From NCBI GenBank assembly GCA_919902105.1, contig CAKKQO010000017.1, forward strand, positions 3,305 to 67,304: a stretch of DNA of 64,000 bases, given 5' to 3'. Within the stretch, counting starts at the first letter, position 1. Each line of letters opens with the position of its first letter. Below the pieces are notes generated by a model that was given only the letters and a program-made list of their open reading frames with translations, had not been told where the DNA came from and searched no databases. Shown here one piece after another: positions 4,138 through 59,632 of the stretch. Made by a program: the position numbers and the translations under genes. The stretch is from Omnitrophica bacterium GWA2_41_15. Its GTDB lineage: Bacteria; Omnitrophota; Gorgyraeia; Ghiorseimicrobiales; Ghiorseimicrobiaceae.

Positions 4138-6192
4138 ATGGATATTCCTTTTCATATTTTTAAAAAAGACCCGGATAAATCTTTCATTGTTGATTACGCC
4201 CCGATTTTTTCCGGGCTCAATATTCTCGAGAAAAACCTTATCATTGAAAAAAGCAAAGTAGTGGAATATAAAAAAGACGATTTGATTTATAAAGAACTTG
4301 ACCCTCCGGACGGATTCTATTGCGTAATTACCGGCAGGATAAAAATTGCTACCGGAAAGAAAACACTGGAATACCTCCACTGCGGAAATTATTTCGGGAT
4401 TATCTCGCTTTTAACCGGGGATGCGCATTCGGTAAATGCCATAGCCGCCAACGACTCTAAAATCCTAAAAATAGAAAAAGATGATTTTGGCGAGATTTTA
4501 AAGCGCATTCCGCACTTAGCTATTGATTTAAGCAAGACCCTTTCGCGCCGTCTGCGCAAAAAAGAGGTTAAAGAAAAAAGGATTTTTGAAAGCAATATCA
4601 TTTCGGTCTTTAGCGCCGCAGGCGTTGGCGGGCGCACGATGTATGCGGCAGACTTGGCGGTTAATTTAAGGAAAGAAACCGAAAGGAACGTTATTTTAGT
4701 TGATATAAGCAAAAACCCGGTTGGCGTATGCCGGGCATTAGGGATTATCCCGCGGGATGACTTACAGCTTCCCGCGATTAAATTAGATACGCCGTTTTTT
4801 ACCGGAGGAATAATCCAAAAGGCAATTATTAAAGACGAGGCGAAAGGTGTAGATATTTTAAATGTGGCGCATGAAAGCGCTGAAGGGAAATTCGCAGCAA
4901 ACCTAAGCGCGCTACTAACCCACCTTGCCAGCGAATACCACTACATCATTGTTGACTTACCTTGCGAAGTTGACGCTGTGGTAAACCAAGCGCTGAGGCA
5001 ATCAGACAGCATTAATATAATTACTGATAATCTCAGCGCCAACCTTATAAAAACCGAGACGTTAATTTCCGAATTAGAGACGAAGATAAATTCTGCCTTT
5101 GACAAAATAAAAATAATTTTAAATGTCAGGGCTGGCGAGAACCGCGTTAATTACGAAGAAACCCTTAGTGCGCTTAAATATAAGATATATGCTACTCTGC
5201 CGGCATTTTGGGAGAAGGCTTTAGAAGGCGCATCGATGCCAGAGAGCCTCGAAGCTGAATATAAAAAAGCAATACGCCGGATTGCCAGGGAGGTCGGGGA
5301 TGTGCGCGTGGGTTTGGCTTTAAGCGGCGGGGCGGCTTTTGGCCTTGCGCATATCGGGGTAATCAGGGTATTAGAACGGGAGAATATTCCGGTGGATGTG
5401 GTAGTCGGCTCCAGTATGGGCGCTCTTATTGCCGCCTTCTGGGCGGTAGGATTGGATAATGATGAATTAGAGAAGGTCGCCTTGGAATTTAACAGCCGCA
5501 AAAAAGCATTTCATTTGATGATGGATTTTGGTTTTCCGAAGCTCTCTTTTGCCAAAGGAAGGAGAATAAAAAAATTGTTACATAAGGTTCTCGCAGATAA
5601 AACATTTGCCGATACAAAATTTCCGCTGAAAATCGTCGCCTGTAATATAAGCAAGCGCTCTAAATTTATCTTTGAGTCGGGCCCCCTTGTGGATGCGGTA
5701 ATGGCCAGTATTGCCATTCCCGGCCTATTTGCTCCAGTTAAAGTAAATGGGGATTTGTTGGTCGATGGCGGTATAATTGAGCCGGTCCCGGTGGGGACAT
5801 TAGTCAAAATGGGGATAAAAAAGATAATTGCGGTGGATACTTTGCCACGGCCGGAAAATATCTTAGAAAATTACGAATACTACTTGAAAATGGCAGAGGC
5901 GCAAAGTAAGCAGATGGAAGGGCGCAGTTTTTTAGACAGGATTATTTCCCGCATGAAAATGCGTTTTAATCAAATGTTTTTTCCTAATATCCTTGACATC
6001 ATCGTCAATAGCATACAGACATTAGAGTCTGCTGTTTCGGAGTCCGATTGCCAAATGGCTGATATCGTGTTGAGGCCTTTTGCCGTAGGAGTAGACTGGT
6101 TTGAGTTATATAAGTCGCAAGCATTAATAAAGAAAGGCATAGAAGAGGCAAGAAGGGCCATGCCTGATATTAAAAATCTCCTCAAAGAATAA
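4138..6192 (+). CDS. Three-domain protein: cyclic-nucleotide-binding domain + degenerate MinD/ParA-like domain + patatin-like phospholipase
   Basis: 684 aa. CAP_ED-like N-terminus (YFGIISLLTGDAHSVNAIA). Middle ISVFSAAGVGGRTM resembles a deviant Walker A lacking the Lys. Patatin motifs LSGGAAFG, GSSMG (GxSxG), DGG. Confidence 0.8.
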   Translation: MDIPFHIFKKDPDKSFIVDYAPIFSGLNILEKNLIIEKSKVVEYKKDDLIYKELDPPDGFYCVITGRIKIATGKKTLEYLHCGNYFGIISLLTGDAHSVNAIAANDSKILKIEKDDFGEILKRIPHLAIDLSKTLSRRLRKKEVKEKRIFESNIISVFSAAGVGGRTMYAADLAVNLRKETERNVILVDISKNPVGVCRALGIIPRDDLQLPAIKLDTPFFTGGIIQKAIIKDEAKGVDILNVAHESAEGKFAANLSALLTHLASEYHYIIVDLPCEVDAVVNQALRQSDSINIITDNLSANLIKTETLISELETKINSAFDKIKIILNVRAGENRVNYEETLSALKYKIYATLPAFWEKALEGASMPESLEAEYKKAIRRIAREVGDVRVGLALSGGAAFGLAHIGVIRVLERENIPVDVVVGSSMGALIAAFWAVGLDNDELEKVALEFNSRKKAFHLMMDFGFPKLSFAKGRRIKKLLHKVLADKTFADTKFPLKIVACNISKRSKFIFESGPLVDAVMASIAIPGLFAPVKVNGDLLVDGGIIEPVPVGTLVKMGIKKIIAVDTLPRPENILENYEYYLKMAEAQSKQMEGRSFLDRIISRMKMRFNQMFFPNILDIIVNSIQTLESAVSESDCQMADIVLRPFAVGVDWFELYKSQALIKKGIEEARRAMPDIKNLLKE

Positions 6193-30633: not shown

Positions 30634-32079
30634 ATGACCCACCCCCAAGCAATCCGCTATTTAGAATCCTTAGTAAACTACGAGAAGAAATCCTATTATC
30701 ATTATAAACACGCATTTAAATTAGAGGGCATAAAGAATTTTTTAGAAATCTTGGGCAATCCGCAGGATTCTCTACGCTGTATTCATATTGCCGGCACTAA
30801 AGGTAAGGGTTCAACCTGTGCCTTTATTGCTCATATCTTAAGAGAGGCCGGACTTTCCGTCGGACTTTATACCTCGCCGCATTTATCGGATTTCCGCGAG
30901 CGCATTAGGATTTTAACCATACCACCTACTACCTATCACCTATCACCTGAATTTGAGGGGATGATTTCAAAACAAGCGTTATCGCGCTTGGCTTGGCGCC
31001 TAAAGCCGACAATAGATAAATTTAACCACAATTCTAAATACGGCCCGCTGACATTTTTTGAAGTTTATACGGCACTCGCCTTTATTTATTTTAAAGAAAA
31101 AAAAGTGGATTTTGCGGTTTTAGAGACGGGTTTGGGCGGAAGATTAGATGCCACAAATGTGATTAATCCTTTAGTCTGCGTAATTACCCCGATAAGTTTA
31201 GAGCATACTCAACTTTTGGGCAATACATTAACGAAAATTGCCCGCGAGAAGGTGGGTATTATCAAGAAGTTTCGCCCCTCGCCCCTCGCCCCTCGCCCCT
31301 CGGTAGTAATCAGCGCGCCGCAGGAGGAAGCAGCAGCTAGGGTGATTAGGGATAGATGTAGAAAAGTTGGCGCTAGATTATATGAAGTAGGGAAGGATAT
31401 AAGATACAAAAAATCCGAAATCCGAAATCCGAAATCCGAAATAAATCTAAAATCCAAAATCAAAAAATTTAAAATCCGCGGAATTTTTAATGAATATAAT
31501 AATTTAAAAATAAAACTTTTAGGTAAGCATCAGCTGGTGAATGCCGCCACGGCAGTGGGGGCAGTTGAGGCGTTAAAAAAATACGGCATTAGTGTAAATA
31601 TCGATGCGATAAGAAAAGGGCTTTATAATACGTTTTGGCCGGGCAGATGCGAAATTGTATCTAAGAAACCGTTAATTGTTTTAGACGGTGCGCAGAATGT
31701 TGCTTCAGCTAAGGCATTAAAAGAAACGATTAAAGAAAATTTTTCCACCGAAGGCGGATCCGCCTCCGGCGGAAAGTATAAAAAGTTAATTCTGGTTTTA
31801 GGGGCTTGTTGCGATAAAGATATTAAGGGAATATGTAATGAGTTGTGCTTGATGGCAGACGAAATCATCTTAACCAAAGCCAAAAACCCGCGGGCGGCGG
31901 AGCCGGAGCATATCAGGGTTCAGGGTTCAGGGTTAAGGGTTAAGGAAAAAATACATTTAACAGAAAATGTAGAGGAAGCGATTCAAAAAGCAGAAGAGCT
32001 TACTAGCAAAGAAGATTTAATCCTGATTACGGGGTCGTTGTTTGTGGTGGCAGAGGCGAGGGAAGTGTTGCAGAAATGA
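30634..32079 (+). CDS. folC: Folylpolyglutamate synthase / dihydrofolate synthase, with several low-complexity in-frame inserts
   Basis: 481 aa. HIAGTKGKGST P-loop, LETGLGGRLDATN, GKHQLVNAATA, LDGAQNV blocks. Start abuts the purH stop. Confidence 0.85.
   Translation: MTHPQAIRYLESLVNYEKKSYYHYKHAFKLEGIKNFLEILGNPQDSLRCIHIAGTKGKGSTCAFIAHILREAGLSVGLYTSPHLSDFRERIRILTIPPTTYHLSPEFEGMISKQALSRLAWRLKPTIDKFNHNSKYGPLTFFEVYTALAFIYFKEKKVDFAVLETGLGGRLDATNVINPLVCVITPISLEHTQLLGNTLTKIAREKVGIIKKFRPSPLAPRPSVVISAPQEEAAARVIRDRCRKVGARLYEVGKDIRYKKSEIRNPKSEINLKSKIKKFKIRGIFNEYNNLKIKLLGKHQLVNAATAVGAVEALKKYGISVNIDAIRKGLYNTFWPGRCEIVSKKPLIVLDGAQNVASAKALKETIKENFSTEGGSASGGKYKKLILVLGACCDKDIKGICNELCLMADEIILTKAKNPRAAEPEHIRVQGSGLRVKEKIHLTENVEEAIQKAEELTSKEDLILITGSLFVVAEAREVLQK
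30923..30950 (+). repeat. Heptanucleotide tandem array in folC (CACCTAT-type, 4 units)
   Basis: CACCTAC TACCTAT CACCTAT CACCTGA. Translated as PTTYHLSP. Confidence 0.85.
31272..31302 (+). repeat. Heptanucleotide tandem array in folC (TCGCCCC x4)
   Basis: TCGCCCC x4 then TCGG. Translated as RPSPLAPRPS. Confidence 0.9.
31411..31480 (+). repeat. Heptanucleotide tandem array in folC (AAATCCG x4 plus degenerate AAAATCC-type units)
   Basis: AAATCCG x4, then AAATAAATCT AAAATCC AAAATCA AAAAATTT AAAATCCGCGG. Translated as KSEIRNPKSEINLKSKIKKFKIRG. Confidence 0.9.
31742..31775. repeat. 34-bp GC-rich palindrome, folC copy (31/34 identical to the mnmE copy)
   Basis: TTTCCACCGAAGGCGGATCCGCCTCCGGCGGAAA. 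Two A-C mismatches in the stem. Translated as STEGGSASGGK. Confidence 0.85.
31923..31957 (+). repeat. Heptanucleotide tandem array in folC (TCAGGGT x3, TAAGGGT, TAAGGAA)
   Basis: Direct reading. Translated as RVQGSGLRVKE. Confidence 0.9.
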
Positions 32080-33611: not shown

Positions 33612-35099
33612 ATGATTGATACAAGGTTTAATCTAACCGACACAATCGCGGCGATGGGGACGGGGCTAGGGGAAGCCGGTATCGGAATTGTGCGCATTAG
33701 TGGAAAAGATGCGCTAAAGATTGCCGATAAGATTTTTGTTGGTAAAGACGGTAACAAACCGTCGCAATTTAAAACATATACGCTGCATTATGGGTGGATT
33801 GTGAATAGTCCACAGTCCATAGTCCGTAGTCCACAGAAAAAAAAGAAGAAACTACCGACTACCGACTACCGACTACCGACTAATATTATCGATGAAGTGC
33901 TTTTGACGGTAATGCGCGCGCCCAAGAGTTATACTAAGGAAGATGTAGTGGAGATAAATTGCCATGGAGGGATTGTGGCAATGCGGGCGGTATTAGATTT
34001 GGTTTTGGCGAATGGGGCGCGCCTTGCCTCTGGCGGTGAATTTACCAAGCGTGCCTTTTTAAACGGAAGGATTGATTTAAATCAGGCAGAGGCAGTTCTG
34101 GATATAATTCGCGCCAAAACAGATAGTGCGCTTAAAATAGGGACAGAGCAGTTAAGAGGGATATTGTCTTTGCAAATAAATAAACTGCATAAGGATTTGT
34201 TAGGCGTACTTACGATATTAGAAGCAAATATTGATTTTCCCGATGAAGAAATTGGCGCGGTTAATTTAAAAGAGGTTAATAAAAAGCTCAAGACCACAAA
34301 GAATAAACTAAAAGATATTGTAGATTTGGCAAAGCGCGGGCAAGTGCTGCGCGATGGTATTGGCGCGGTTATCTGCGGCAGGCCCAATGTGGGCAAATCC
34401 TCGCTTTTGAATGCGCTCTTAAGAAGGGAGCGCTCTATCGTTAGCCCGGTTGCCGGCACTACCCGTGACACAATAGAGGAAATTATCGATATAAAAGGCA
34501 TTCCAATTAGGATTGTAGATACTGCAGGAATTATTGAGCCGCGGGATTTAGTGGAAAAAAAGGCGGTTTCGCGCTCTAAGCGCGTTATTGATCTGGCGGA
34601 TTTGGTGATTTTGCTTTTTGACGGCAGCCAAAAATTAAACAAAGAAGATAGTGCGCTGATTAAAAAATTTCCTCCGAAGGCGGATCCGCCTTCGGAGGAA
34701 AGCAAAAAGCAAGTTATCGCGGTTATAAATAAAATAGACCTAAGGCAAAAAATAAAAAAAGAGAAACTAAATAAAGTATTTGAATGTGTAATTGAGCTTT
34801 CAGCGAAGAAAATAAAGAATATAAATTTATTAGAAGATGCGATTGCGGGTTTGGTGTTTGGCGGAAAAATCAATAAATCCGAGTCTCTACTGGTGAGTAA
34901 TTTAAGGCATATTGAGTTGCTTAGGGGAGCGCAAAAAACTCTTGGCCAGGCCTGCGATTCGCTGGATAATAAAGTGTCTCTTGAATTCATTGCCCAGGAT
35001 ATTAAGGCGGCCTTAGGTTATTTTGATGATATTTTAGGTAAGAAATTTTCCGAAGACCTATTGGATAAGATATTTGGGGAGTTTTGTATCGGTAAATGA
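33612..35099 (+). CDS. mnmE: tRNA modification GTPase MnmE with in-frame repeat inserts
   Basis: 495 aa. DTIAA..T, SYTKEDVVEINCHGG, GRPNVGKSSLLNAL, VAGTTRD, DTAG, C-terminal FCIGK. Confidence 0.85.
   Translation: MIDTRFNLTDTIAAMGTGLGEAGIGIVRISGKDALKIADKIFVGKDGNKPSQFKTYTLHYGWIVNSPQSIVRSPQKKKKKLPTTDYRLPTNIIDEVLLTVMRAPKSYTKEDVVEINCHGGIVAMRAVLDLVLANGARLASGGEFTKRAFLNGRIDLNQAEAVLDIIRAKTDSALKIGTEQLRGILSLQINKLHKDLLGVLTILEANIDFPDEEIGAVNLKEVNKKLKTTKNKLKDIVDLAKRGQVLRDGIGAVICGRPNVGKSSLLNALLRRERSIVSPVAGTTRDTIEEIIDIKGIPIRIVDTAGIIEPRDLVEKKAVSRSKRVIDLADLVILLFDGSQKLNKEDSALIKKFPPKADPPSEESKKQVIAVINKIDLRQKIKKEKLNKVFECVIELSAKKIKNINLLEDAIAGLVFGGKINKSESLLVSNLRHIELLRGAQKTLGQACDSLDNKVSLEFIAQDIKAALGYFDDILGKKFSEDLLDKIFGEFCIGK
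33806..33880 (+). repeat. Two heptanucleotide arrays joined by an A-run inside mnmE (TAGTCCA-type x4, ACTACCG x4)
   Basis: TAGTCCA CAGTCCA TAGTCCG TAGTCCA (33806-33833), A-rich linker, ACTACCG x4 (33851-33878). Translated as SPQSIVRSPQKKKKKLPTTDYRLPTN. Confidence 0.9.
34668..34701. repeat. Perfect 34-bp GC-rich palindrome inside mnmE
   Basis: TTTCCTCCGAAGGCGGATCCGCCTTCGGAGGAAA. Translated as FPPKADPPSEE. Confidence 0.9.
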
Positions 35100-40497: not shown

Positions 40498-41130
40498 ATG
40501 GCGGAAATTGGGAGGGCGAGCAAAATGAAAGGGAAGACGGAAATATTTGTTTTAATCATAATCTTCCTCTGCGGCTTGGCAGGCTTTTCTTTATATAAGT
40601 ACGCAGGGATAAATATAGATTTAGGCCGCGAGAAGAAGCAGTTGATAGAGTTAGAAGCAAGAAATAATGCAATAACTCAAGAATTAGGAGAACAGAAAGT
40701 GCGCCTTAGCCAAGTAAACGAGGAGAAGAAAAACCTTGAAGAAGAAGTAACTCTCGGCAGGCAAAATTTAGGCCAGCTGAAGCTAGAATTAGCGGATAGC
40801 CGCAAGTCACTGGCAAGTTTACAAAGGACGGTCGAAGAATTAACTGCCGTTAATCAGAATTTAAATCAGGAACAGGCTGCTCTAAAGGCAAAAATCGAAG
40901 AATTAACCAGCCGAAAAAATACTTTAGAGGCGAAGATAAGTTCTGTAGAAGAACTTAAACAGATGTTGAAAGATTTAATAAAGTCAAAAAGAACCCAGCG
41001 CCACAGGAAGGCGAGAGCAAAGATAAACACAGAACAAGAATCAAAAGATAAAAACCATGGTTATATCATTTATCAGGGAAAACCTACCTTTAAGCCTAAG
41101 ATTTCTATACAGGTAAGACCCGTCCTTTAA
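40498..41130 (+). CDS. Membrane-anchored coiled-coil protein
   Basis: 210 aa. One TM helix, then a long heptad-rich segment (LEEEV..LKLELADSRKSLASLQ..). The start could be ATG 40525. Confidence 0.4.
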   Translation: MAEIGRASKMKGKTEIFVLIIIFLCGLAGFSLYKYAGINIDLGREKKQLIELEARNNAITQELGEQKVRLSQVNEEKKNLEEEVTLGRQNLGQLKLELADSRKSLASLQRTVEELTAVNQNLNQEQAALKAKIEELTSRKNTLEAKISSVEELKQMLKDLIKSKRTQRHRKARAKINTEQESKDKNHGYIIYQGKPTFKPKISIQVRPVL

Positions 41131-41216
41131 AGGTATCAGGACGGTCTACCCTTGTAGGGTAAGACCCGTCCTTTAAAGGTATCAGGACGGTCTACCCTTG
41201 TAGGGTAATACCCGCC
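41112..41216 (+). repeat. 46-nt tandem duplication (2.3 copies) spanning the gene end; each unit forms a hairpin
   Basis: GGTAAGACCCGTCCTTTAAAGGTATCAGGACGGTCTACCCTTGTAG at 41112 and 41158, with a partial third copy. Contains AGACC(C)GTCCT/AGGACGGTCT and TACCC/GGGTA stems and a GTAG motif. Confidence 0.85.
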
Positions 41217-43821: not shown

Positions 43822-44844
43822 ATGGAAAAACAAGATATAAAAAATCTGTCTTTGGCAGAATTAAAGGCAGATTTACTTGCCTTATCTTTTGCTCCTTATG
43901 TAGCAGAGCAAATTTTCACTTGGCTCTATAAAAAGAGAATAAGTAGTTTTTCTGGAATGTCCAATATCTCTAAGGGCAATATTTCTAAATTAAAAAATAA
44001 ATTTTATATCGGTGATATAGCCTTGAAAGATAAGTTGATATCCAAAGACGGAACAATAAAATTTCTCTTTGGATTAATAGATAAAGAGGCGGTAGAGACC
44101 GTATTTATTCCCGCCAAAAACAGGAATACCCTTTGCCTTTCTTCACAGGTAGGCTGTAAATTCAGGTGTTTATTTTGCGCCAGCGGCAAGAGTTTTGTCA
44201 GAAATTTATCCGTTTCTGAAATCACTTCGCAGTTATCCAGAATAATTGAGATTACAGGCGCCGCGGTAAGCCACCTCGTATTTATGGGAATAGGCGAGCC
44301 GTTGGATAATTATGATAATGTATTTAAAGCCGTACGGATTTTTAACGCTCCTTCGGCTTTTAATATCGGCGCGCGCCGCATTACCATTTCTACCTGCGGC
44401 ATAATCCCTGCGATTGAAAATTTAGCACGGCAAGGCCTGCAGGTAGAATTATCCATATCTTTACATGCGGCAGATAATGAGCTAAGGAATAAGCTTATGC
44501 CCGTGAATAAAAGGTACCCTTTGGATAAATTAATTTCCTGCGTGCGCGAGTATATAAAACAAACTAACCGCCAGATTACCTTCGAGTATATTTTAATAAA
44601 AGGATTAAATGATAGTTTATCTTGCGCCGATAAATTGTCTAAGCTTTTATCCGGGCTAAATTTTAAAGTTAACCTTATTCTATTTAATCTGCAGGAAGGG
44701 TCTTGTTTTCAGCCGCCAGACAAAAAACTTGTCTTAGGTTTTAAAGAGCGGCTGATAAAAAATGGCACTCATGCAACTACAAGAGCATCACGCGGCCAGG
44801 ATATTCGTGCTGCCTGCGGGCAATTAAGAATAGCGCATAATTAG
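43822..44844 (+). CDS. rlmN: 23S rRNA/tRNA (adenine-C2)-methyltransferase RlmN (radical SAM)
   Basis: 340 aa. CLSSQVGCKFRCLFCASG, MGIGEPLDN, C-terminal IRAACGQL. Confidence 0.85.
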   Translation: MEKQDIKNLSLAELKADLLALSFAPYVAEQIFTWLYKKRISSFSGMSNISKGNISKLKNKFYIGDIALKDKLISKDGTIKFLFGLIDKEAVETVFIPAKNRNTLCLSSQVGCKFRCLFCASGKSFVRNLSVSEITSQLSRIIEITGAAVSHLVFMGIGEPLDNYDNVFKAVRIFNAPSAFNIGARRITISTCGIIPAIENLARQGLQVELSISLHAADNELRNKLMPVNKRYPLDKLISCVREYIKQTNRQITFEYILIKGLNDSLSCADKLSKLLSGLNFKVNLILFNLQEGSCFQPPDKKLVLGFKERLIKNGTHATTRASRGQDIRAACGQLRIAHN

Positions 44845-44880
44845 GGACACATCCCATTTTTAAAAAATGGGATGTGTCCC
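44844..44880. repeat. Perfect 18-bp-arm palindrome between rlmN and the deacetylase gene
   Basis: GGGACACATCCCATTTTT / AAAAATGGGATGTGTCCC with no spacer. Overlaps the last base of the rlmN stop codon. Confidence 0.85.
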
Positions 44881-44891
44881 TAATAAATAAT

Positions 44892-52231: not shown

Positions 52232-52317
52232 TGGTGCCGAAGAAGGGAGTTGAACCCTTACGAGCTTACGCTCATCGGTTTTTGAGACCGACGTGTATGC
52301 CATTCCACCACTTCGGC
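52232..52317 (-). tRNA. tRNA-Leu (anticodon CAA), class II with long variable arm, CCA encoded
   Basis: Reverse complement GCCGAAG-TG-...TCGGT-CTCAAAA-ACCGA...AAGGGTTCAACTCCCTT-CTTCGGC-ACCA folds as a cloverleaf with anticodon loop CU-CAA-AA. Confidence 0.9.
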
Positions 52318-52893: not shown

Positions 52894-52969
<76 letters not shown>

Positions 52970-54898: not shown

Positions 54899-55393
54899 AT
54901 GGCGAATTTTTCTTTTGATATTGTTTCAGAAGTAGATATGCAGGAAGTGGATAACGCCATAAATCAGGCCAAAAAAGAGCTTGTCCAGCGCTATGATTTT
55001 AAGGGCAGTAAGTCTTCGATTGAATTTGACCGTAGCGAAAAAAAATTGACCCTAATCGGAGATGATGATTTTAAACTGCGCGCCTTAAGGGATATTTTAG
55101 CAGGGCGCCTTGCCAAAAGAGGAGTCTCGTTTAAATTTCTTACTTTTAAAGAGCCGGAAAAGGCATTTGAGGGGACCTTGCGCCAGCAGGTGGAAATTGT
55201 AAGCGGCATAGACAAAGAAAAAGCCAGAGATTTAAATAAGATTATAAAGGAGTTAGGGCTAAAGGTGCAGACGCAGATTGAGGGAGAAAAAATCCGGGTA
55301 ATATCAGCAAAAAAAGACGACTTGCAGACAGTGATTGCGCATTTAAGAAGCATTGATTTTCCGCTCCCGCTTTCCTTTTGTAATTATAGGTAA
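54899..55393 (+). CDS. YajQ family nucleotide-binding protein (UPF0234)
   Basis: 164 aa. SFDIVSEVDMQEVDNAINQAKKE...RYDFKGS pattern is diagnostic of YajQ. Confidence 0.8.
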   Translation: MANFSFDIVSEVDMQEVDNAINQAKKELVQRYDFKGSKSSIEFDRSEKKLTLIGDDDFKLRALRDILAGRLAKRGVSFKFLTFKEPEKAFEGTLRQQVEIVSGIDKEKARDLNKIIKELGLKVQTQIEGEKIRVISAKKDDLQTVIAHLRSIDFPLPLSFCNYR

Positions 55394-55397
55394 GCCT

Positions 55398-57833
55398 ATG
55401 CAATACGATTTTTCCCAAATAGAAGCTAAATGGCAGAAGTTCTGGCAGAAAAACAAGAGCTTTCGCGCCGCCATCGATAAAACCCGCAAAAAGTTTTACT
55501 GCCTTGAGATGTTTCCTTATCCCTCAGGTAGGATACATATGGGCCATGTGCGTAATTATACTATCGGTGATGTAATTGCCCGCTATAAGTGGATGCAGGG
55601 TTTTAATGTGCTGCATCCAATGGGCTTTGACGCCTTTGGCCAGCCGGCAGAAAACGCCGCGATAAAGAATAATTCCGACCCCAAAGAATGGACCTATAAA
55701 TGCATAGATTGGATGAAGGCTCAACTTAAGAAGATGGGGTTTTCCTATGATTGGGAAAGGGAAGTTGTGACCTGTGGCCCCGCATATTATCGCTTCAACC
55801 AGTGGATATTTTTAAAGATGCTCGAGCGCGGGCTTGCTTATAAGAAGGCATCAACCGTTAACTGGTGCCCGAGCTGCGAGACAACGCTCGCCAATGAAGA
55901 AGTTATTGACGGCGCATGCTGGCGCTGCAAGAACGCTGTAGCCCAAAAAGATTTAGAGCAGTGGTACCTTAAAATTACCGCCTATCAGGAAAGGTTATTG
56001 GAAGATTTAAAGCAATTAGCGCATTGGCCCGAACAAGTAATTGCGATGCAAGAGAATTGGATAGGCAAGAGCTCCGGGTGCGAAATTTATTTTAAGCTTC
56101 GCGATAGCGGGGAGATTATCCCGGTTTTTACCACCCGCGCAGACACTATTTTTGGCGTAACTTATATCGTGCTGGCGCCGGAGCATACAATAATATCAAA
56201 AATTTCTGCCGAAGGCGGAAAAGGCCATATATCAAACCTCAAAGAAGTTGAGCAATATATTGAAGCAGCGAAAAAGAAAACAAAATTAGAAAGAATTGAA
56301 AGAGATAAAACCGGCATACAGTTAAAAGGTATTACAGCCATAAACCTGGTAAACAACGAAGAAATACCTGTTTTTATTGCCGACTATGTGCTTATGGAAT
56401 ATGGCACCGGCGCAATTATGGCTGTCCCTACGCACGACCAGCGGGATTTTCTCTTTGCCAAAGAGCATAATCTGCCGATGCGGATTGTAATTCAGGCTCC
56501 AGGCTCCAGGCTGCAAGCTCCAAGCGAAATGAAAGAAGCATACGAGGGCGATGGGGTGCAAGTTAATTCTGGAGAATTTGACGGTTTACCTAACCAAGAA
56601 GCGAAGATAAAGATTGCGCAGTGGATAGAAGATAAGGGTATGGGAAAAATCTCCACCCAATGGCGCCTAAAGGATTGGCTGATTTCCCGCCAGCGTTATT
56701 GGGGGACACCCATTCCGGTGATTTACTGTCCAAAGTGCGGTATTGTCGGTGTGCCTTACGAAGACCTGCCGGTTGAGTTACCTGAAAAAGTAAAGATTAC
56801 AGGCGTTGGCGGAAGCCCGCTTTCTAAGGTAAAGGAATTTGTTGTGGTAAAATGCCCGAAATGTAGCGGCCGCGCCCTTCGGGAAACTGATACTATGGCG
56901 ACTTTTATTGATTCTTCGTGGTATTTCTTAAGATACTGCTCGCCGGATTTTGACAAGGCGCCGTTTGATAAAGACGAGGCGGCCTATTGGATGAAGGTGG
57001 ATCAGTATATCGGCGGCATTGAGCATGCGGTCCTGCATTTATTATATTCGCGTTTTTTTACCAAATTTTTTAAGGATTTAGGGATGCTTGATTTTTCCGC
57101 CGAAGGCGGAGATGAGCCGTTTGATAAATTGCTTACCCAGGGGATGGTGCTTAAAGACGGCGAGGTAATGTCAAAATCACGCGGCAATATAGTGGATCCG
57201 GATGAGATTATTAATAAATATGGCGCAGACACCCTGCGGCTTTTTATTCTTTTTGCCGCACCACCCGAAGCGGAACTTGAATGGAACGATACAGCCATAG
57301 ACGGCTCTTTTAAATTTTTAATGCGCATCTTTCGCCTTTTAGAAAAAGCCGCTGATAAAACTCCGAGCGCCGAACTCTTGCGCCGCCTGCATAGTACGAT
57401 TAAAAAAGTTACTGAAGATATGGAGGGCGGTTTTAAGTTTAACACTGCGATTAGCGCAATTATGGAATTAGTCAACGAAATCTATAAAAGTGATTCCGTA
57501 AACAAGGAAATTCTAAAGACGCTTACGATTTTAATCTCGCCGTTTGTCCCGCATATGGCAGAAGAGATGTGGCAGGCACTCGGTGCAAAAGAAAGCATCT
57601 TAAAAGTCCGCTGGCCTGAGTTTAAGCCTGAGTTTTTAAAATTAGACAAAGTTACGCTGGTTGTGCAGATTAACGGCAAGGTGCGCGAAAAAATAGAAGC
57701 AGAAGTTGATATAGATAAAGAAAGCCTAAAAGAATTAGTTTTAGCCAGCAATACTGTAAAGAAATGGATTGAAAATAAGCCGGTCAAAAATTTTGTAATT
57801 GTGCCGAATAAATTAGTAAATATCGTAGTTTAA
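55398..57833 (+). CDS. leuS: Leucyl-tRNA synthetase
   Basis: ATG 55398. FPYPSGRIHMGHVRNY (HIGH), KMSKSRGN-type VMSKSRGN (KMSKS), and CP1/zinc motifs. Confidence 0.9.
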   Translation: MQYDFSQIEAKWQKFWQKNKSFRAAIDKTRKKFYCLEMFPYPSGRIHMGHVRNYTIGDVIARYKWMQGFNVLHPMGFDAFGQPAENAAIKNNSDPKEWTYKCIDWMKAQLKKMGFSYDWEREVVTCGPAYYRFNQWIFLKMLERGLAYKKASTVNWCPSCETTLANEEVIDGACWRCKNAVAQKDLEQWYLKITAYQERLLEDLKQLAHWPEQVIAMQENWIGKSSGCEIYFKLRDSGEIIPVFTTRADTIFGVTYIVLAPEHTIISKISAEGGKGHISNLKEVEQYIEAAKKKTKLERIERDKTGIQLKGITAINLVNNEEIPVFIADYVLMEYGTGAIMAVPTHDQRDFLFAKEHNLPMRIVIQAPGSRLQAPSEMKEAYEGDGVQVNSGEFDGLPNQEAKIKIAQWIEDKGMGKISTQWRLKDWLISRQRYWGTPIPVIYCPKCGIVGVPYEDLPVELPEKVKITGVGGSPLSKVKEFVVVKCPKCSGRALRETDTMATFIDSSWYFLRYCSPDFDKAPFDKDEAAYWMKVDQYIGGIEHAVLHLLYSRFFTKFFKDLGMLDFSAEGGDEPFDKLLTQGMVLKDGEVMSKSRGNIVDPDEIINKYGADTLRLFILFAAPPEAELEWNDTAIDGSFKFLMRIFRLLEKAADKTPSAELLRRLHSTIKKVTEDMEGGFKFNTAISAIMELVNEIYKSDSVNKEILKTLTILISPFVPHMAEEMWQALGAKESILKVRWPEFKPEFLKLDKVTLVVQINGKVREKIEAEVDIDKESLKELVLASNTVKKWIENKPVKNFVIVPNKLVNIVV
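56203..56221 (+). repeat. GC-rich mini-hairpin TTTCTGCC-GAA-GGCGGAAA inside leuS
   Basis: Direct reading. Translated as SAEGGK. Confidence 0.6.
56493..56527 (+). repeat. Heptanucleotide tandem array in leuS (CAGGCTC-type, 5 units)
   Basis: CAGGCTC CAGGCTC CAGGCTG CAAGCTC CAAGCGA. Translated as QAPGSRLQAPSE. Confidence 0.85.
57094..57110 (+). repeat. GC-rich mini-hairpin TTTCCGCC-GAA-GGCGGA inside leuS
   Basis: Direct reading. Translated as FSAEGGD. Confidence 0.6.
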
Positions 57834-57861: not shown

Positions 57862-58209
57862 ATGTTTCAGCTTAACCTTACCCGTCAGGAAAAGAATGTA
57901 ATTTTAGTGGTTATTCTTGCAGCACTTGTTGGCATCGGCATAAGTTATTTATTTAAAGCAATACCTAAGGCAGACGAGGCATATAATGCCTCTTTTGATA
58001 AGCCGTTAAAGGTAAATATCAACACCGCCTCGTTCGATGAGTTAATTAAGCTTCCTGAAATCGGCCCTAAGACCGCAGAAAGAATCATAAACTTCCGCGG
58101 CAAAAACGGAAAATTTTCTGAAATAGACCAATTAAAACAAATCCAAGGCATTACAGATAAAAAATTAACGCGCATAAAAGAATTCCTTGTTCTTGAAGAG
58201 CCAAAATAA
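57862..58209 (+). CDS. comEA: ComEA-family helix-hairpin-helix DNA-binding protein
   Basis: 115 aa. TM anchor, then VNINTASFDELIKLPEIGPKTAERII..R...G.F..I..L..I.GI. Confidence 0.75.
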   Translation: MFQLNLTRQEKNVILVVILAALVGIGISYLFKAIPKADEAYNASFDKPLKVNINTASFDELIKLPEIGPKTAERIINFRGKNGKFSEIDQLKQIQGITDKKLTRIKEFLVLEEPK

Positions 58210-59632
58210 AAAAATAAATTTTGTTCTTGTCCCTATCGCTGTTTGCTTTTCTTTGGGGATATCGGCGGCGAGTTTCACTAATATCCCTTTTTTTATTTGT
58301 TATCCGCTTTCTGCCATTCTGCTCATTGTTTGTTTATTCCTAAGAGATGATGAGGCGTTTAGCATAAATTTATTGGGCCTGGCTTTTTTTATCGGGGCAG
58401 CGCATTTATCCTCTTATCAGACCCTACCTAAAAATCACATTGCTGATGCTAATAATCGCTGGATATTTTGGCAGGATGGTATTTTGGCAAGGGGTCTTAT
58501 TATCGATGAGCCGCAAATTAAAGAGGGAAGAGCTAAGTTTATATTATATTTGTCAGAGATAAAGGTTGGGGGTGGGGAACAAAAAGCAACAGTAAGGGGA
58601 AAAATTTTAGTTACGGTTTTTGACGGAGAAGTATTGCCAAAAATATCTTACGGCGATGAGGTAATTTTGGAGGGAAAATTTTTCAGGCCGCATAATTTTG
58701 GTAAAAAAAGCAATTTCGACTATCGCCGTTATTTAACGCGCCGAGGCATATACGGTGCATTAAATGTCAGAAAAGGCGCGCCTTTTAAAATAACCGCGCA
58801 TAATAGAGGGAATTTTATTAAGCAATTGGCGATTAAATTTAAAAATAAAATAGAGTCTGGCTTTTACGCTAATATGCCTGAAAGCTACGCGGCGGTCTTA
58901 TCAACAATGTTATTAGGGGATAGGTCGAGTTTACCTAAAGGGATTTTAGAAGTATTTGTCAGGACCGGCACCGCCCATATTCTGGCTATAAGCGGCATGA
59001 ATATCGCGATAACCGCTTTTATTCTGCTTGTATTTCTAAAAGTAATGCGCATTCCCAGAAAGCCGCGTTATATTTTAACCATCCTGCTCCTTGTATTTTA
59101 TAATTTTATTACCGGCGCACAGCCGTCTGTAAGCCGAGCAGTGATTATGGGCTCGGTTTTGTTAGTCGGATTGTTGCTTGAGAGGGAGGTAAATATCTAT
59201 AATTCTCTGGCTTTGGCAGCGTTAATCCTACTGGCACAAAATCCCTTGCAAATACAAGAGATAGGGTTTCAACTGTCTTTTGTCAGCGTTATCTCAATAG
59301 TTTATCTTTCCCCAAAGATAGAAAGGTTTTTACGCCTGAATAATTTTATTCTAAAATCTTTTTCTGTATCGCTGGCGGCGTGGCTTGGCACATTCCTATT
59401 CATAATTTATTACTTTAAGATTATTTCGCCGGTGACTATTTTGGCTAATTTAGTTATTGTGCCTTTGGTAACGGTGCTTACGGTGGCAGGGTTTATTTTG
59501 ATGTTGGGGATATTTATTCTACCGGCTTTTGTTCACGTATTTGGCCTGACTGCGGGTGCAAGCGTTTATCTCTTGATTAAATCCGCTGAACTTTTCTCCC
59601 TCATCCCCGGCGCATATTTTTATTTAAAATAA
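58187..59632 (+). CDS. comEC: ComEC/Rec2 DNA internalisation channel (DUF4131 + competence domain; no metallo-beta-lactamase domain)
   Basis: 481 aa, multi-TM. Conserved GTAHILAISGMNI and SRAVIMG blocks. TTG start uncertain. Confidence 0.7.
   Translation: MFLKSQNKKINFVLVPIAVCFSLGISAASFTNIPFFICYPLSAILLIVCLFLRDDEAFSINLLGLAFFIGAAHLSSYQTLPKNHIADANNRWIFWQDGILARGLIIDEPQIKEGRAKFILYLSEIKVGGGEQKATVRGKILVTVFDGEVLPKISYGDEVILEGKFFRPHNFGKKSNFDYRRYLTRRGIYGALNVRKGAPFKITAHNRGNFIKQLAIKFKNKIESGFYANMPESYAAVLSTMLLGDRSSLPKGILEVFVRTGTAHILAISGMNIAITAFILLVFLKVMRIPRKPRYILTILLLVFYNFITGAQPSVSRAVIMGSVLLVGLLLEREVNIYNSLALAALILLAQNPLQIQEIGFQLSFVSVISIVYLSPKIERFLRLNNFILKSFSVSLAAWLGTFLFIIYYFKIISPVTILANLVIVPLVTVLTVAGFILMLGIFILPAFVHVFGLTAGASVYLLIKSAELFSLIPGAYFYLK

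What the first reader, a model, noticed from the sequence alone, without database searches (positions are those of the whole stretch)
56493..56527. Heptamer array (CAGGCTC-type x5) inside leuS
CAGGCTC CAGGCTC CAGGCTG CAAGCTC CAAGCGA encodes QAPGSRLQAPSE, just upstream of the conserved EAY.G.G...NSGEFDG block. This is the third essential gene in the window with the same period-7, roughly 4-unit design and decaying terminal units. That pattern supports a common generating process such as slippage, templated repair or an unknown element.
Basis: seen in the sequence. Interest (0 to 1): 0.55.

Follow-up and report, generated by a model that had tools for sequence, protein, structure and literature searches.

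The report
In-frame heptamer repeat in leuS loop
A 33-base run of a 7-base repeat sits in frame in a tolerant loop of the essential leucyl-tRNA synthetase gene of an uncultured Omnitrophota bacterium, and in related bacteria that same loop is spelled by dozens of different 7- or 8-base repeats, which points to repeat slippage operating inside essential genes rather than to a new gene or element.

Summary
Window 56493-56525 is a period-7 tract (CAGGCTC, 4.7 copies, 3 mismatches) read in frame as QAPGSRLQAPS in leuS. It is one of eight ~30-nt heptamer tracts in the window, all in folC, mnmE and leuS; no other period gives such tracts.

The array encodes 10-11 of the 14 residues of a loop in the CP1 editing domain. 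The loop is no longer than in array-free LeuRS. Of 124 related leuS sequences, 42 carry a tandem array at exactly this site (35 heptamer, 7 octamer, more than 25 units), and all are in frame.

Units differ between lineages in every copy at once. One non-coding element pair differs by exactly one 7-nt unit. One folC site differs by exactly three units (21 nt).

Best reading: an ordinary heptanucleotide microsatellite that changes by slippage or out-of-register repair, filtered by reading frame and loop length, with some recombination between lineages.

Unexplained: the exclusive 7-8 nt period, the ~31-nt tract size, and replacement of the loop without a length change.

Verdict: a new variant of a known repeat kind, of moderate interest.

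The parts
55398..57833 (+). leuS (leucyl-tRNA synthetase), 811 aa, from the ATG that aligns with homologue N-termini. The mechanical ORF starts at TTG 55353.
   Evidence: PF13603 editing domain at residues 219-410; PF00133; PF08264; Thermus LeuRS 1h3n/2v0c.
56493..56525 (+). Heptamer tract (CAGGCTC)x4.7: 33 nt, 3 mismatches, in frame, encoding QAPGSRLQAPS.
56493..56534 (+). The 14-codon variable loop (QAPGSRLQAPSEMK) of the CP1 editing domain that the tract occupies. It corresponds to Thermus LeuRS ERPGEPLPEPLER.
   Evidence: The structure model shows coil at residues 367-374, but the model is of mediocre quality.
56478..56492 (+). Conserved left border, codons MRIVI.
56535..56555 (+). Conserved right border, codons EAYEGDG.
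30920..30948 (+). Sister tract in folC, unit CACCTAT-type: 29 nt, imperfect, encoding IPPTTYHLSP.
31272..31302 (+). Sister tract in folC, (TCGCCCC)x4.4, perfect. At this site array-free relatives are exactly 21 nt shorter than an array-bearing one.
31411..31476 (+). Two adjacent sister tracts in folC: (AAATCCG)x4.6, perfect, and a decayed AAATCTA-type tract.
31913..31945 (+). Sister tract in folC, (TCAGGGT)x4.7.
33807..33836 (+). Sister tract in mnmE, (AGTCCAC)x4.3.
33851..33882 (+). Sister tract in mnmE, (ACTACCG)x4.6, perfect.

Best explanation
The tract is a heptanucleotide microsatellite living inside a structurally tolerant loop of the LeuRS CP1 editing domain. It is not a gene, a signal or a discrete mobile element. 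Because 7 is not a multiple of 3, the ribosome reads the repeat in all three frames, which gives a peptide with a 7-residue period (QAPGSRL-QAP).

Proposed mechanism (inferred): misalignment of the repeat during replication or repair adds, removes or copies units. This includes slipped-strand mispairing and out-of-register gap or break repair. In an essential gene only outcomes that keep the frame and an acceptable loop length survive, meaning steps of +/-3 units (21 nt) or conversions with no net length change. The same misalignment keeps the units alike, so a point mutation in one unit either disappears or spreads to all units. Whole arrays therefore drift in sequence while staying perfect.

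Short-patch recombination between related lineages additionally moves array alleles. comEA and comEC lie just downstream of leuS.

The window's copy was homogenised as CAGGCTC and now carries 3 departures from that unit in 33 nt, through either decay or incomplete homogenisation. Its effect on the enzyme is probably neutral.
For: Shown directly:
- The tract is real, in frame and non-random.
- The excess is specific to period 7, with a little at period 8, and is independent of sequence: 47 perfect heptamer tracts against none at periods 5, 6 or 9-12 in 1.05 Mb, and 93 units among 135 arrays.
- The same loop holds tandem arrays in 42 of 124 related leuS sequences, with more than 25 units. The arrays always span loop nt ~3-31 with sharp edges at the conserved codons. 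All 124 loops are in frame.
- Concerted change is visible. Perfect (ACCATCG)n and perfect (ACCGTCG)n differ in every copy. Heptamer GTCACCG and octamer GTCACCAG differ by 1 nt per unit, and the loop goes from 14 to 15 aa. L169 has units homogenised in place relative to L185, with no length change.
- Unit-step length changes are seen. Two 97%-identical copies of a non-coding hairpin element differ by exactly one unit, ATAGACC. At one folC site, array-free AAA-AATCAAA-ATTTA compares with AAA-(ATTCAAA)x4-ATTTA, a difference of exactly 21 nt. Units at that site share xxTCxxx in register across lineages.
- Four-fold degenerate sites between the window and its closest relative are only 40% identical, which is about 1.2 substitutions per site. 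Perfect 31-32-nt arrays must therefore be young or actively homogenised.
- There are recombination signals. L120 and L169 are 15.0% diverged within 90 nt of the loop but 6.2% further away (p=0.0014). L094 and L137 share an identical array, with nearer flanks more similar than distant ones (p=0.035).
- The site is permissive. Other LeuRS lineages carry 150-400-residue inserts at this site, some with motifs resembling Nudix or alpha/beta-hydrolase domains as read by eye.
- In the fetched loci, about half of the arrays outside the leuS loop (47 of 96) lie outside long ORFs, so arrays are relatively depleted in coding DNA. That fits a selective filter.

Background from the literature: over-representation of heptameric repeats in bacteria and a polymerase-slippage explanation have been proposed before (Mrazek 2007, as summarised in PMC4692102 and PMC4679880).
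Against: - At the leuS loop itself, no contracted state (7-aa loop) or expanded state (7.4 copies, 21-aa loop) was seen among 124 DNA sequences and 120 protein sequences. The DNA search pattern could not have matched loops shorter than 10 aa, so for contracted loops only the protein set counts. The +/-21-nt route is therefore shown only at folC.
- The array replaces 10 of 14 ancestral-type loop residues with no net length change. Simple expansion does not produce that.
- A one-step jump from 1.4 to 4.4 copies is mechanistically awkward, and single-unit intermediates would be lethal frameshifts.
- Tracts outside long ORFs also peak near 31 nt (median 31). Perfect tracts outside ORFs, however, are all 25 nt or shorter.
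- Some relatives with 84-93% identical flanks have unrelated loops without a clear recombination patch, for example L150/L162.
- The window and L001/L174 share CAGGCTC in the same register despite near-saturated silent sites and unremarkable flanks.
- Nothing here explains why the period is 7-8 nt.
Confidence: 0.6

Rival explanations
1. A dedicated, sequence-independent 'tract-writing' activity, such as a repair or primase-type polymerase or a templated patch mechanism, repeatedly overwrites about 31 nt (three helical turns) at permissive sites with a freshly reiterated 7-8-nt unit, with no net length change.
For: - Tract length is narrow (29-34 nt) for eight different units in the window, and the perfect tracts in related loci peak at 31-33 nt.
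- Heptamer and octamer arrays have similar total lengths at the same site.
- The arrays replace the LeuRS loop in place.
- Loops are unrelated among close relatives.
- Tracts outside ORFs have a similar modal length.
- The L003 leuS-loop array shares 21 of 22 nt with the arm of a hairpin element 1.3 kb downstream, so sequence does pass between arrays.
Against: - Frame plus loop-length selection already predicts about 4.4 copies in coding DNA. Perfect tracts of 30-35 nt are seen in ORFs and not outside them.
- Single-unit and three-unit step changes are seen directly.
- Gradual, related unit families exist.
- One case of wholesale loop replacement carries a recombination patch.
- No candidate enzyme or template was found, and units are too diverse for a fixed template.
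Confidence: 0.13
2. The window's array was not made in this lineage but was imported as a short patch by homologous recombination from another Omnitrophota lineage that carries the CAGGCTC allele. This explains where the allele came from, not how arrays are made, so it complements the main explanation.
For: - The same unit, register and site occur in L001/L174, whose LeuRS is only about 70% identical. The closest relative, L002, has AAACCCG instead.
- Recombination signals exist in other pairs.
- comEA and comEC are adjacent.
Against: - The 60-nt and 300-nt flanks of the window against L001/L174 are no more similar than average: 78-82%, rank 32-37 of 115.
- Related CARGCTC-family units are widespread (L114, L178, L196, L162, L146), which is compatible with descent.
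Confidence: 0.15
3. Protein-level selection: the loop is under diversifying or compositional selection, for example as a flexible linker or to evade a factor that binds LeuRS, and the DNA periodicity is secondary.
For: - The loop is hypervariable and rich in P, S, Q, G, T and K.
- Prolines recur at loop positions 3 and 10.
Against: - The regularity is in the nucleotides. Perfect 31-nt DNA repeats occur, and unit changes alter several residues at once regardless of chemistry, for example QTIDHRPSTID against QTVDRRPSTVD.
- The same kind of tract occurs in non-coding DNA and in unrelated proteins.
- No peptide is conserved.
Confidence: 0.05
4. A contingency (phase-variation) switch: gain or loss of one unit turns leuS off and on.
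For: The unit length is not a multiple of three, as in classical contingency loci.
Against: - leuS is essential and, in this window, present as a single copy.
- The tract lies mid-gene.
- 0 of 124 assembled alleles are out of frame.
- The same design is found in folC and mnmE.
Confidence: 0.02
5. Chance, or a by-product of codon usage.
For: None.
Against: - 0 of 4000 shuffles reach the observed score.
- Simulations expect 0.0 such tracts per window.
- The site recurs in independent assemblies.
Confidence: 0.01

Closest known systems
STRR (short tandemly repeated repetitive) heptamers of heterocystous cyanobacteria. Source: my own knowledge (Mazel et al. 1990); PMC4692102 mentions the Calothrix PCC 7601 heptanucleotides.
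   Same: - Tandem 7-nt units, many arrays per genome, specific to period and lineage.
- Arrays within one genome tend to share units and occur as inverted pairs. This is also seen in the cyanobacterial control loci L046, L043 and L072.
   Different: - STRRs use a few genome-typical units, are mostly intergenic, and vary widely in length (3-28 copies in the control loci).
- Here 135 arrays use 93 units, tracts cluster at about 4.4 copies, and many sit in frame in conserved genes.
Over-represented heptameric long simple sequence repeats in prokaryotes (Mrazek, Guo & Shah 2007, as summarised in PMC4692102 and PMC4679880).
   Same: - A specific excess of period 7 over neighbouring periods.
- A proposed polymerase-slippage origin.
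   Different: That work reported that repeats with units not divisible by three are avoided in coding regions. Here they populate loops of essential proteins, and one site is occupied across dozens of lineages.
GGGAATC (Xanthomonas) and GGGGAYT (Nostoc) repeats (Rehm et al. 2015, PMC4692102).
   Same: - Heptamers with a marked preference for about four units.
- Sequence and length vary between close relatives at the same locus.
   Different: [quoted passage not shown]
- The four-unit preference there was attributed to G4 formation, which cannot apply to units such as AAATCCG or ACTACCG.
TAACTGA direct repeats of Beggiatoaceae, cyanobacteria and some Bacteroidetes (MacGregor 2015, PMC4679880).
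   Same: - Heptamer arrays of 2-6 copies scattered in a genome.
- Patchy phylogenetic distribution, and no known mechanism.
   Different: A single unit sequence, placed mostly in 5' untranslated regions, with a proposed regulatory role.
Rickettsia palindromic elements inserted in frame in protein genes. Source: my own knowledge (Ogata et al. 2000).
   Same: Non-coding-type repeat DNA tolerated inside essential genes at surface loops and translated as part of the protein.
   Different: - RPEs are 100-150-bp dispersed palindromic elements, not 31-nt tandem arrays.
- The better analogue of RPEs in this window is the 15/30-nt GC-rich palindromic insert listed under things noticed in passing.
Contingency loci (phase-variable simple sequence repeats).
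   Same: Tandem repeats inside a coding region with a unit length not divisible by three.
   Different: - The gene here is an essential housekeeping gene.
- No frameshifted alleles were found.
- Only frame-preserving states are seen.

Membership tests
Heptanucleotide simple sequence repeat (STRR / long-SSR class) | Head-to-tail tandem copies of a 7-nt unit, at least 3 copies | tested here: met
   4.3-4.7 copies at 56493-56525.
Heptanucleotide simple sequence repeat (STRR / long-SSR class) | Genome-wide excess of period 7 over other periods and over chance | tested here: met
   In the window, 5 strong tracts at period 7 against an expectation of 0.0. In related loci, 47 perfect heptamer tracts against 0 at periods 5, 6 and 9-12.
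Heptanucleotide simple sequence repeat (STRR / long-SSR class) | Length changes in whole-unit steps between copies or relatives | tested here: met
   A one-unit indel between the L003 elements and a three-unit (21-nt) difference at folC. Not observed at the leuS loop itself.
Heptanucleotide simple sequence repeat (STRR / long-SSR class) | Predominantly intergenic location (classical STRR) | tested here: not met
   All eight window tracts are inside genes. In related loci, about half of the arrays outside the leuS loop lie in long ORFs.
Heptanucleotide simple sequence repeat (STRR / long-SSR class) | A few genome-typical unit sequences (classical STRR1-3) | tested here: not met
   Eight different units in the window; 93 units among 135 arrays.
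Phase-variable contingency locus | Alleles differing by non-triplet repeat steps that switch the reading frame | tested here: not met
   0 of 124 loop alleles are out of frame.
Phase-variable contingency locus | Located in a dispensable surface, restriction-modification or virulence gene | tested here: not met
   The host genes are leuS, folC and mnmE.
Diversity-generating retroelement variable region | A template repeat copy elsewhere, with adenine-specific differences | tested here: not met
   No second copy of the tract in 64 kb at up to 3 mismatches. Differences between alleles are not adenine-specific.
Diversity-generating retroelement variable region | A reverse transcriptase gene nearby | not tested
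   Only the 10 ORFs around leuS were scanned against Pfam, and none is a reverse transcriptase. The rest of the window was not scanned.
In-frame dispersed mobile element (RPE- or MITE-like) | The same element sequence dispersed at many loci | tested here: not met
   The CAGGCTC tract is unique in the window. Among the 205 loci fetched, it occurs elsewhere only at the same leuS site, in L001 and L174.

The most novel reading that the evidence does not exclude
Some Omnitrophota and neighbouring lineages possess a sequence-independent activity that writes tandem tracts of about 31 nt with a 7-8-nt register into permissive DNA, including loops of essential proteins, and that overwrites earlier tracts without changing length. 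The heptamer arrays, the inverted-array hairpin elements and perhaps the 15/30-nt palindromic in-frame inserts would then be products of one unrecognised small-DNA turnover system. That system would make essential-protein loops hypervariable.
Probability: 0.12. Interest if true: 0.85.

Novelty: new variant of a known kind. Interest (0 to 1): 0.58.

Why it matters
Heptamer repeats have been known to be over-represented in bacteria since 1990 and 2007, yet nobody knows why the period is 7 or how the arrays turn over. This LeuRS loop offers a natural experiment. It is one orthologous, essential, single-copy site where dozens of lineages carry different perfect 7- or 8-nt arrays of the same total length, flanked by conserved codons that allow exact alignment.

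That makes three things directly measurable from public metagenomes: the rates of homogenisation, of unit substitution and of recombination.

The site also shows that repeats with units not divisible by three can persist inside essential genes. There they generate 7-residue-periodic peptides and rapid loop diversification. This matters for gene calling, for alignment-based phylogenomics of uncultured phyla, and for ideas about how new loop sequence arises.

For the enzyme itself the array is probably neutral.

Tried and rejected
- Recent transfer as the reason the window and L001/L174 share CAGGCTC: the flanks are not unusually similar, so no support was found. A very short patch cannot be excluded.
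- A second (template) copy of the tract in the window: none found.
- Looking up the window's own genome through its FolC protein (P0121), to find strain variants: not on record.
- A neighbour-joining tree from 200 flanking residues, to test single against multiple origins of the loop array: too poorly resolved to decide. Arrays and array-free loops are interleaved.
- An AlphaFold2 model of LeuRS from a 28-sequence alignment: mean pLDDT 65.8. It was used only to note coil at residues 367-374 and was not used for a fold search.
- The genome-collection scan with the LeuRS alignment hit universal motifs and returned mostly other phyla. These served as outgroups and as cyanobacterial controls but gave few Omnitrophota.
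- Literature searches for heptamer repeats in Omnitrophota or in coding regions found nothing specific. The main Omnitrophota genomics paper does not mention repeats. Elhai et al. 2008 could not be retrieved.
- The idea that the ~31-nt tract size is entirely a reading-frame effect was checked. It holds for perfect tracts but not clearly for imperfect tracts outside ORFs.
- A search for contracted 7-aa loops among 150 distant LeuRS representatives was started, but only eight were read. It showed instead that this site accepts large domain insertions.
Full report
**1. The observation**

Window 56493-56527 reads CAGGCTC CAGGCTC CAGGCTG CAAGCTC CAAGCGA. Tandem Repeats Finder calls 56493-56522 as period 7, 4.3 copies, 86% matches. 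Extending while the period holds gives 56493-56525: 33 nt with 3 mismatches to (CAGGCTC)n.

The tract lies in a + strand ORF (55353-57833; the likely start is ATG 55398). That ORF is leuS:
- Pfam finds the LeuRS editing domain (PF13603, residues 219-410), PF00133 and PF08264.
- The best database relatives are LeuRS of Candidatus Omnitrophota, at up to 80% identity.
- The segment aligns to Thermus thermophilus LeuRS structures.

The tract begins on the first base of a codon and encodes QAPGSRLQAPS, residues 366-376, just before EMK-EAYEGDGVQVNSGEFDG.

The best period-7 run score in leuS is 14. None of 2000 synonymous-codon shuffles (mean 5.0, maximum 13) and none of 2000 codon-order shuffles (mean 5.4, maximum 10) reach it at any period from 4 to 12.

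**2. The window as a whole**

The window has eight period-7 tracts of 3.7-4.7 copies and nothing comparable at other short periods. Order-2 Markov simulations expect 0.0 strong tracts per 64 kb at any period from 5 to 10, against 5 observed at period 7.

- Five tracts are in folC (30634-32079).
- Two are in mnmE (33612-35099).
- One is in leuS.

The identities of folC and mnmE rest on matches to solved FolC and MnmE structures.

All tracts are 29-34 nt long. They start at codon phases 1, 2, 0, 2, 1, 0, 2, 0, use eight different units and share no flanking sequence.

**3. What the leuS tract replaces**

In an alignment of 28 Omnitrophota LeuRS sequences, the tract is not an insertion. The stretch between MRIVI and EAYEGDG is 14 residues in the window and in most homologues.

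Array-free LeuRS from Velamenicoccus, deltaproteobacteria, Nitrospinota and others has a 13-14-residue loop here, of the type QPKDQPLVVETMQ or QPEGETLDAAAMT. Thermus has ERPGEPLPEPLER.

The site lies in the CP1 editing domain, about 20 residues after the conserved HDQRD motif. It is clearly permissive, because other lineages carry 150-400-residue inserts at this site.

**4. The same loop in relatives**

- The contig of the closest relative (L002, 80% identical protein) has a perfect (AAACCCG)x4.3 at this loop.
- A 70%-identical relative (L001) has a perfect (CAGGCTC)x4.4, the window's own unit in the same register.
- A degenerate DNA pattern anchored on the conserved flanks recovered 120 further metagenomic leuS loci.

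Of 124 loops, 42 carry a strong tandem array: 35 with period 7 and 7 with period 8. They use more than 25 different units, including CAGCATC, GGGGCAA, ACCATCG, ACCGTCG, CAGCCAT, AAGGACC, ACACAAT, GAACCAC, CAGTCGT, GAAGCTG, AAATCCC, GTCACCG and the octamers GTCACCAG and GAACTTGC.

In 34 unique heptamer loops the array always spans loop nt ~3 to ~31. It has sharp edges at the conserved first codon and at the xE[ED][LM]T end, and the central units are the cleanest. All 124 alleles are in frame.

At the protein level, many of 120 database LeuRS sequences show the expected 7- or 8-residue periodicity in this loop.

**5. Signs of how the arrays change**

(a) Concerted change.
- Perfect (ACCATCG)n and perfect (ACCGTCG)n differ by one base in every copy.
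- Heptamer GTCACCG and octamer GTCACCAG/GTCACCGG differ by one inserted base per unit, which turns a 14-residue loop into a 15-residue one.
- L169 has three units homogenised in place relative to the decayed octamer array of L185, with identical total length.

(b) Unit-step length change.
- Two 97%-identical copies of a non-coding hairpin element in L003 differ by exactly one unit, ATAGACC.
- At the folC site after GIIK, the array-free allele reads AAA-AATCAAA-ATTTA and an array allele reads AAA-(ATTCAAA)x4-ATTTA. That is exactly +21 nt, or 7 codons.
- The units at this site in four lineages share xxTCxxx in register.

(c) Age.
- Four-fold degenerate sites between the window and its closest relative are 40% identical, against 26% expected at saturation. 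That corresponds to about 1.2 substitutions per site.
- The perfect 31-32-nt tracts in folC and mnmE, and in relatives' leuS, must therefore be recent or actively homogenised.
- The leuS tract, with 3 mismatches in 33 nt, is somewhat older or only partly homogenised. Its two 3' units match variants present in L114.

(d) Recombination.
- L120 and L169 have unrelated loops. Their divergence is 15.0% within 90 nt of the loop and 6.2% further out (p=0.0014).
- L094 and L137 share an identical perfect array, with near flanks more similar than far flanks (p=0.035).
- Other pairs show no patch.
- comEA and comEC lie directly downstream of leuS.

(e) Sequence passes between arrays within a genome.
- Arrays in the same locus share a unit in 15.5% of pairs, against 3.0% for pairs from different loci, and often form close inverted pairs.
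- The L003 leuS-loop array shares 21 of 22 nt with an arm of the terminator-like hairpin element 1.3 kb downstream.

**6. How general the pattern is**

In 1.05 Mb of Omnitrophota-type loci, perfect tandem tracts of at least 3 copies number 47 at period 7, 3 at period 8, and none at periods 5, 6 or 9-12. Their lengths peak at 31-33 nt with a maximum of 39. Six cyanobacterial control loci show 22-57 nt.

Outside the leuS loop, tracts within long ORFs have a median of 32 nt and tracts outside them a median of 31 nt. Perfect tracts of 30-35 nt occur only in ORFs.

135 unique arrays use 93 canonical units, so there is no fixed template.

The other window sites behave like the leuS loop. Every folC and mnmE tract sits at a variable loop where relatives have arrays with other units, including a perfect octamer array in L204 mnmE, or have no array at all.

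**7. Interpretation**

The best-supported reading is a heptanucleotide microsatellite of the kind long known from cyanobacteria and other bacteria (PMC4692102, PMC4679880). Here it colonises permissive loops of conserved proteins.

- Misalignment during replication or repair supplies gains, losses and conversions of units.
- Selection for reading frame and loop size leaves only the ~4.4-copy state in coding DNA.
- Homogenisation keeps arrays perfect while their unit drifts.
- Recombination shuffles array alleles between lineages.

What was shown directly: the periodicity, the site recurrence, the concerted unit differences, the 7-nt and 21-nt steps and the in-frame rule. What is inferred: the molecular mechanism of misalignment and the neutrality of the peptide.

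What does not fit comfortably:
- Contracted or expanded states are absent at the leuS loop.
- The loop is replaced in place without a length change.
- A one-step three-unit jump is mechanistically awkward.
- Tracts outside ORFs also have a mode near 31 nt.
- The period is exclusively 7-8 nt.
- The unit CAGGCTC is shared with a distant lineage.

These points keep open, at roughly one chance in eight, a dedicated tract-writing activity. Chance, protein-level selection and phase variation are disfavoured.

**8. Novelty**

Heptamer excess and STRR-type repeats are known. In the searchable literature I found no description of any of the following:
- heptamer arrays in Omnitrophota;
- frequent in-frame heptamer or octamer tracts in essential genes;
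- a single orthologous loop occupied by dozens of different arrays of constant length.

I rate it a new variant of a known kind, of moderate interest.

Noticed in passing
window 56205-56225 and 57093-57113 (leuS); 31744-31773 (folC); 34671-34700 (mnmE): A second class of in-frame mini-insert, in the same three genes as the heptamer arrays. It is a GC-rich 15-nt hairpin, TCCGCC-GAA-GGCGGA (peptide SAEGG), and its 30-nt double or palindromic form (STEGGSASGG; PPKADPPSEE = CCTCCGAAGGCGGATCCGCCTTCGGAGGA). The mnmE copy is an exact 10-codon insertion relative to L203, L204 and L205. The folC copy is absent in L204. Related inserts are present or absent among LeuRS and FolC homologues. It resembles Rickettsia palindromic elements in miniature.
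   Followed up: partly
L003 12440-12580 and 14768-14915; L040 3913-4006, 6098-6171, 9547-9618, 21846-21919; L002 12437-12495, 19550-19663: In relatives, intergenic heptamer arrays often come as inverted pairs, with unit U on one arm and its reverse complement on the other. These form long hairpins (L003: -39.9 kcal/mol, z = -5.6, followed by a T-run) and are dispersed in several copies per contig. They look like terminator-like or MITE-like elements built from heptamer arrays.
   Followed up: partly
P0271, P0284, P0288, P0295, P0317, P0380 (LeuRS of other lineages), at the position equivalent to window 56493-56534: LeuRS proteins of 950-1220 residues carry inserts of 150-400 residues at this same editing-domain loop. 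Read by eye, some contain a Nudix-like motif and others an alpha/beta-hydrolase-like motif (HSLG). No domain search was run on them.
   Followed up: no
L011 1204-1236, 2031-2069, 2194-2227: A groundwater MAG labelled Nitrospinota has three separate heptamer arrays inside its leuS, one of them at the same loop, plus two more arrays just downstream. That is six arrays in 4.5 kb.
   Followed up: no
L204 mnmE (about 4345-5763; site equivalent to window 33807-33882): A perfect octamer array, (GTGCTCCA)x4.1 (33 nt), sits at the mnmE N-terminal site where the window has two heptamer arrays, L205 has a decayed heptamer array and L203 has nothing.
   Followed up: partly
window 41112-41214: An intergenic tandem repeat of a 46-nt unit, 2.2 copies, 98% identical. 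Each unit contains an inverted repeat, GACCCGTCC...GGACGGTC.
   Followed up: no
window 44840-44884: A perfect 22-nt palindrome, ATTAGGGACACATCCCATTTTT / AAAAATGGGATGTGTCCCTAAT, with a 1-nt loop, lying between two + strand ORFs.
   Followed up: no
window 1-64000: Almost every long ORF is on the + strand, and GC skew is positive throughout (cumulative skew rises monotonically). Two tRNA genes lie at 52235-52317 (-) and 52894-52966 (+).
   Followed up: no
window 57862-59632: comEA-like (HHH_3) and comEC (Competence, DUF4131) genes lie directly downstream of leuS. The arrangement is conserved in L001 and L002. This is relevant to recombination between lineages.
   Followed up: partly
P0003, P0132, P0190 (LeuRS and FolC homologues): Larger in-frame inserts share peptide ends of the type NPVR...ISNGV and occur in different proteins. 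They may represent a third kind of insert.
   Followed up: no
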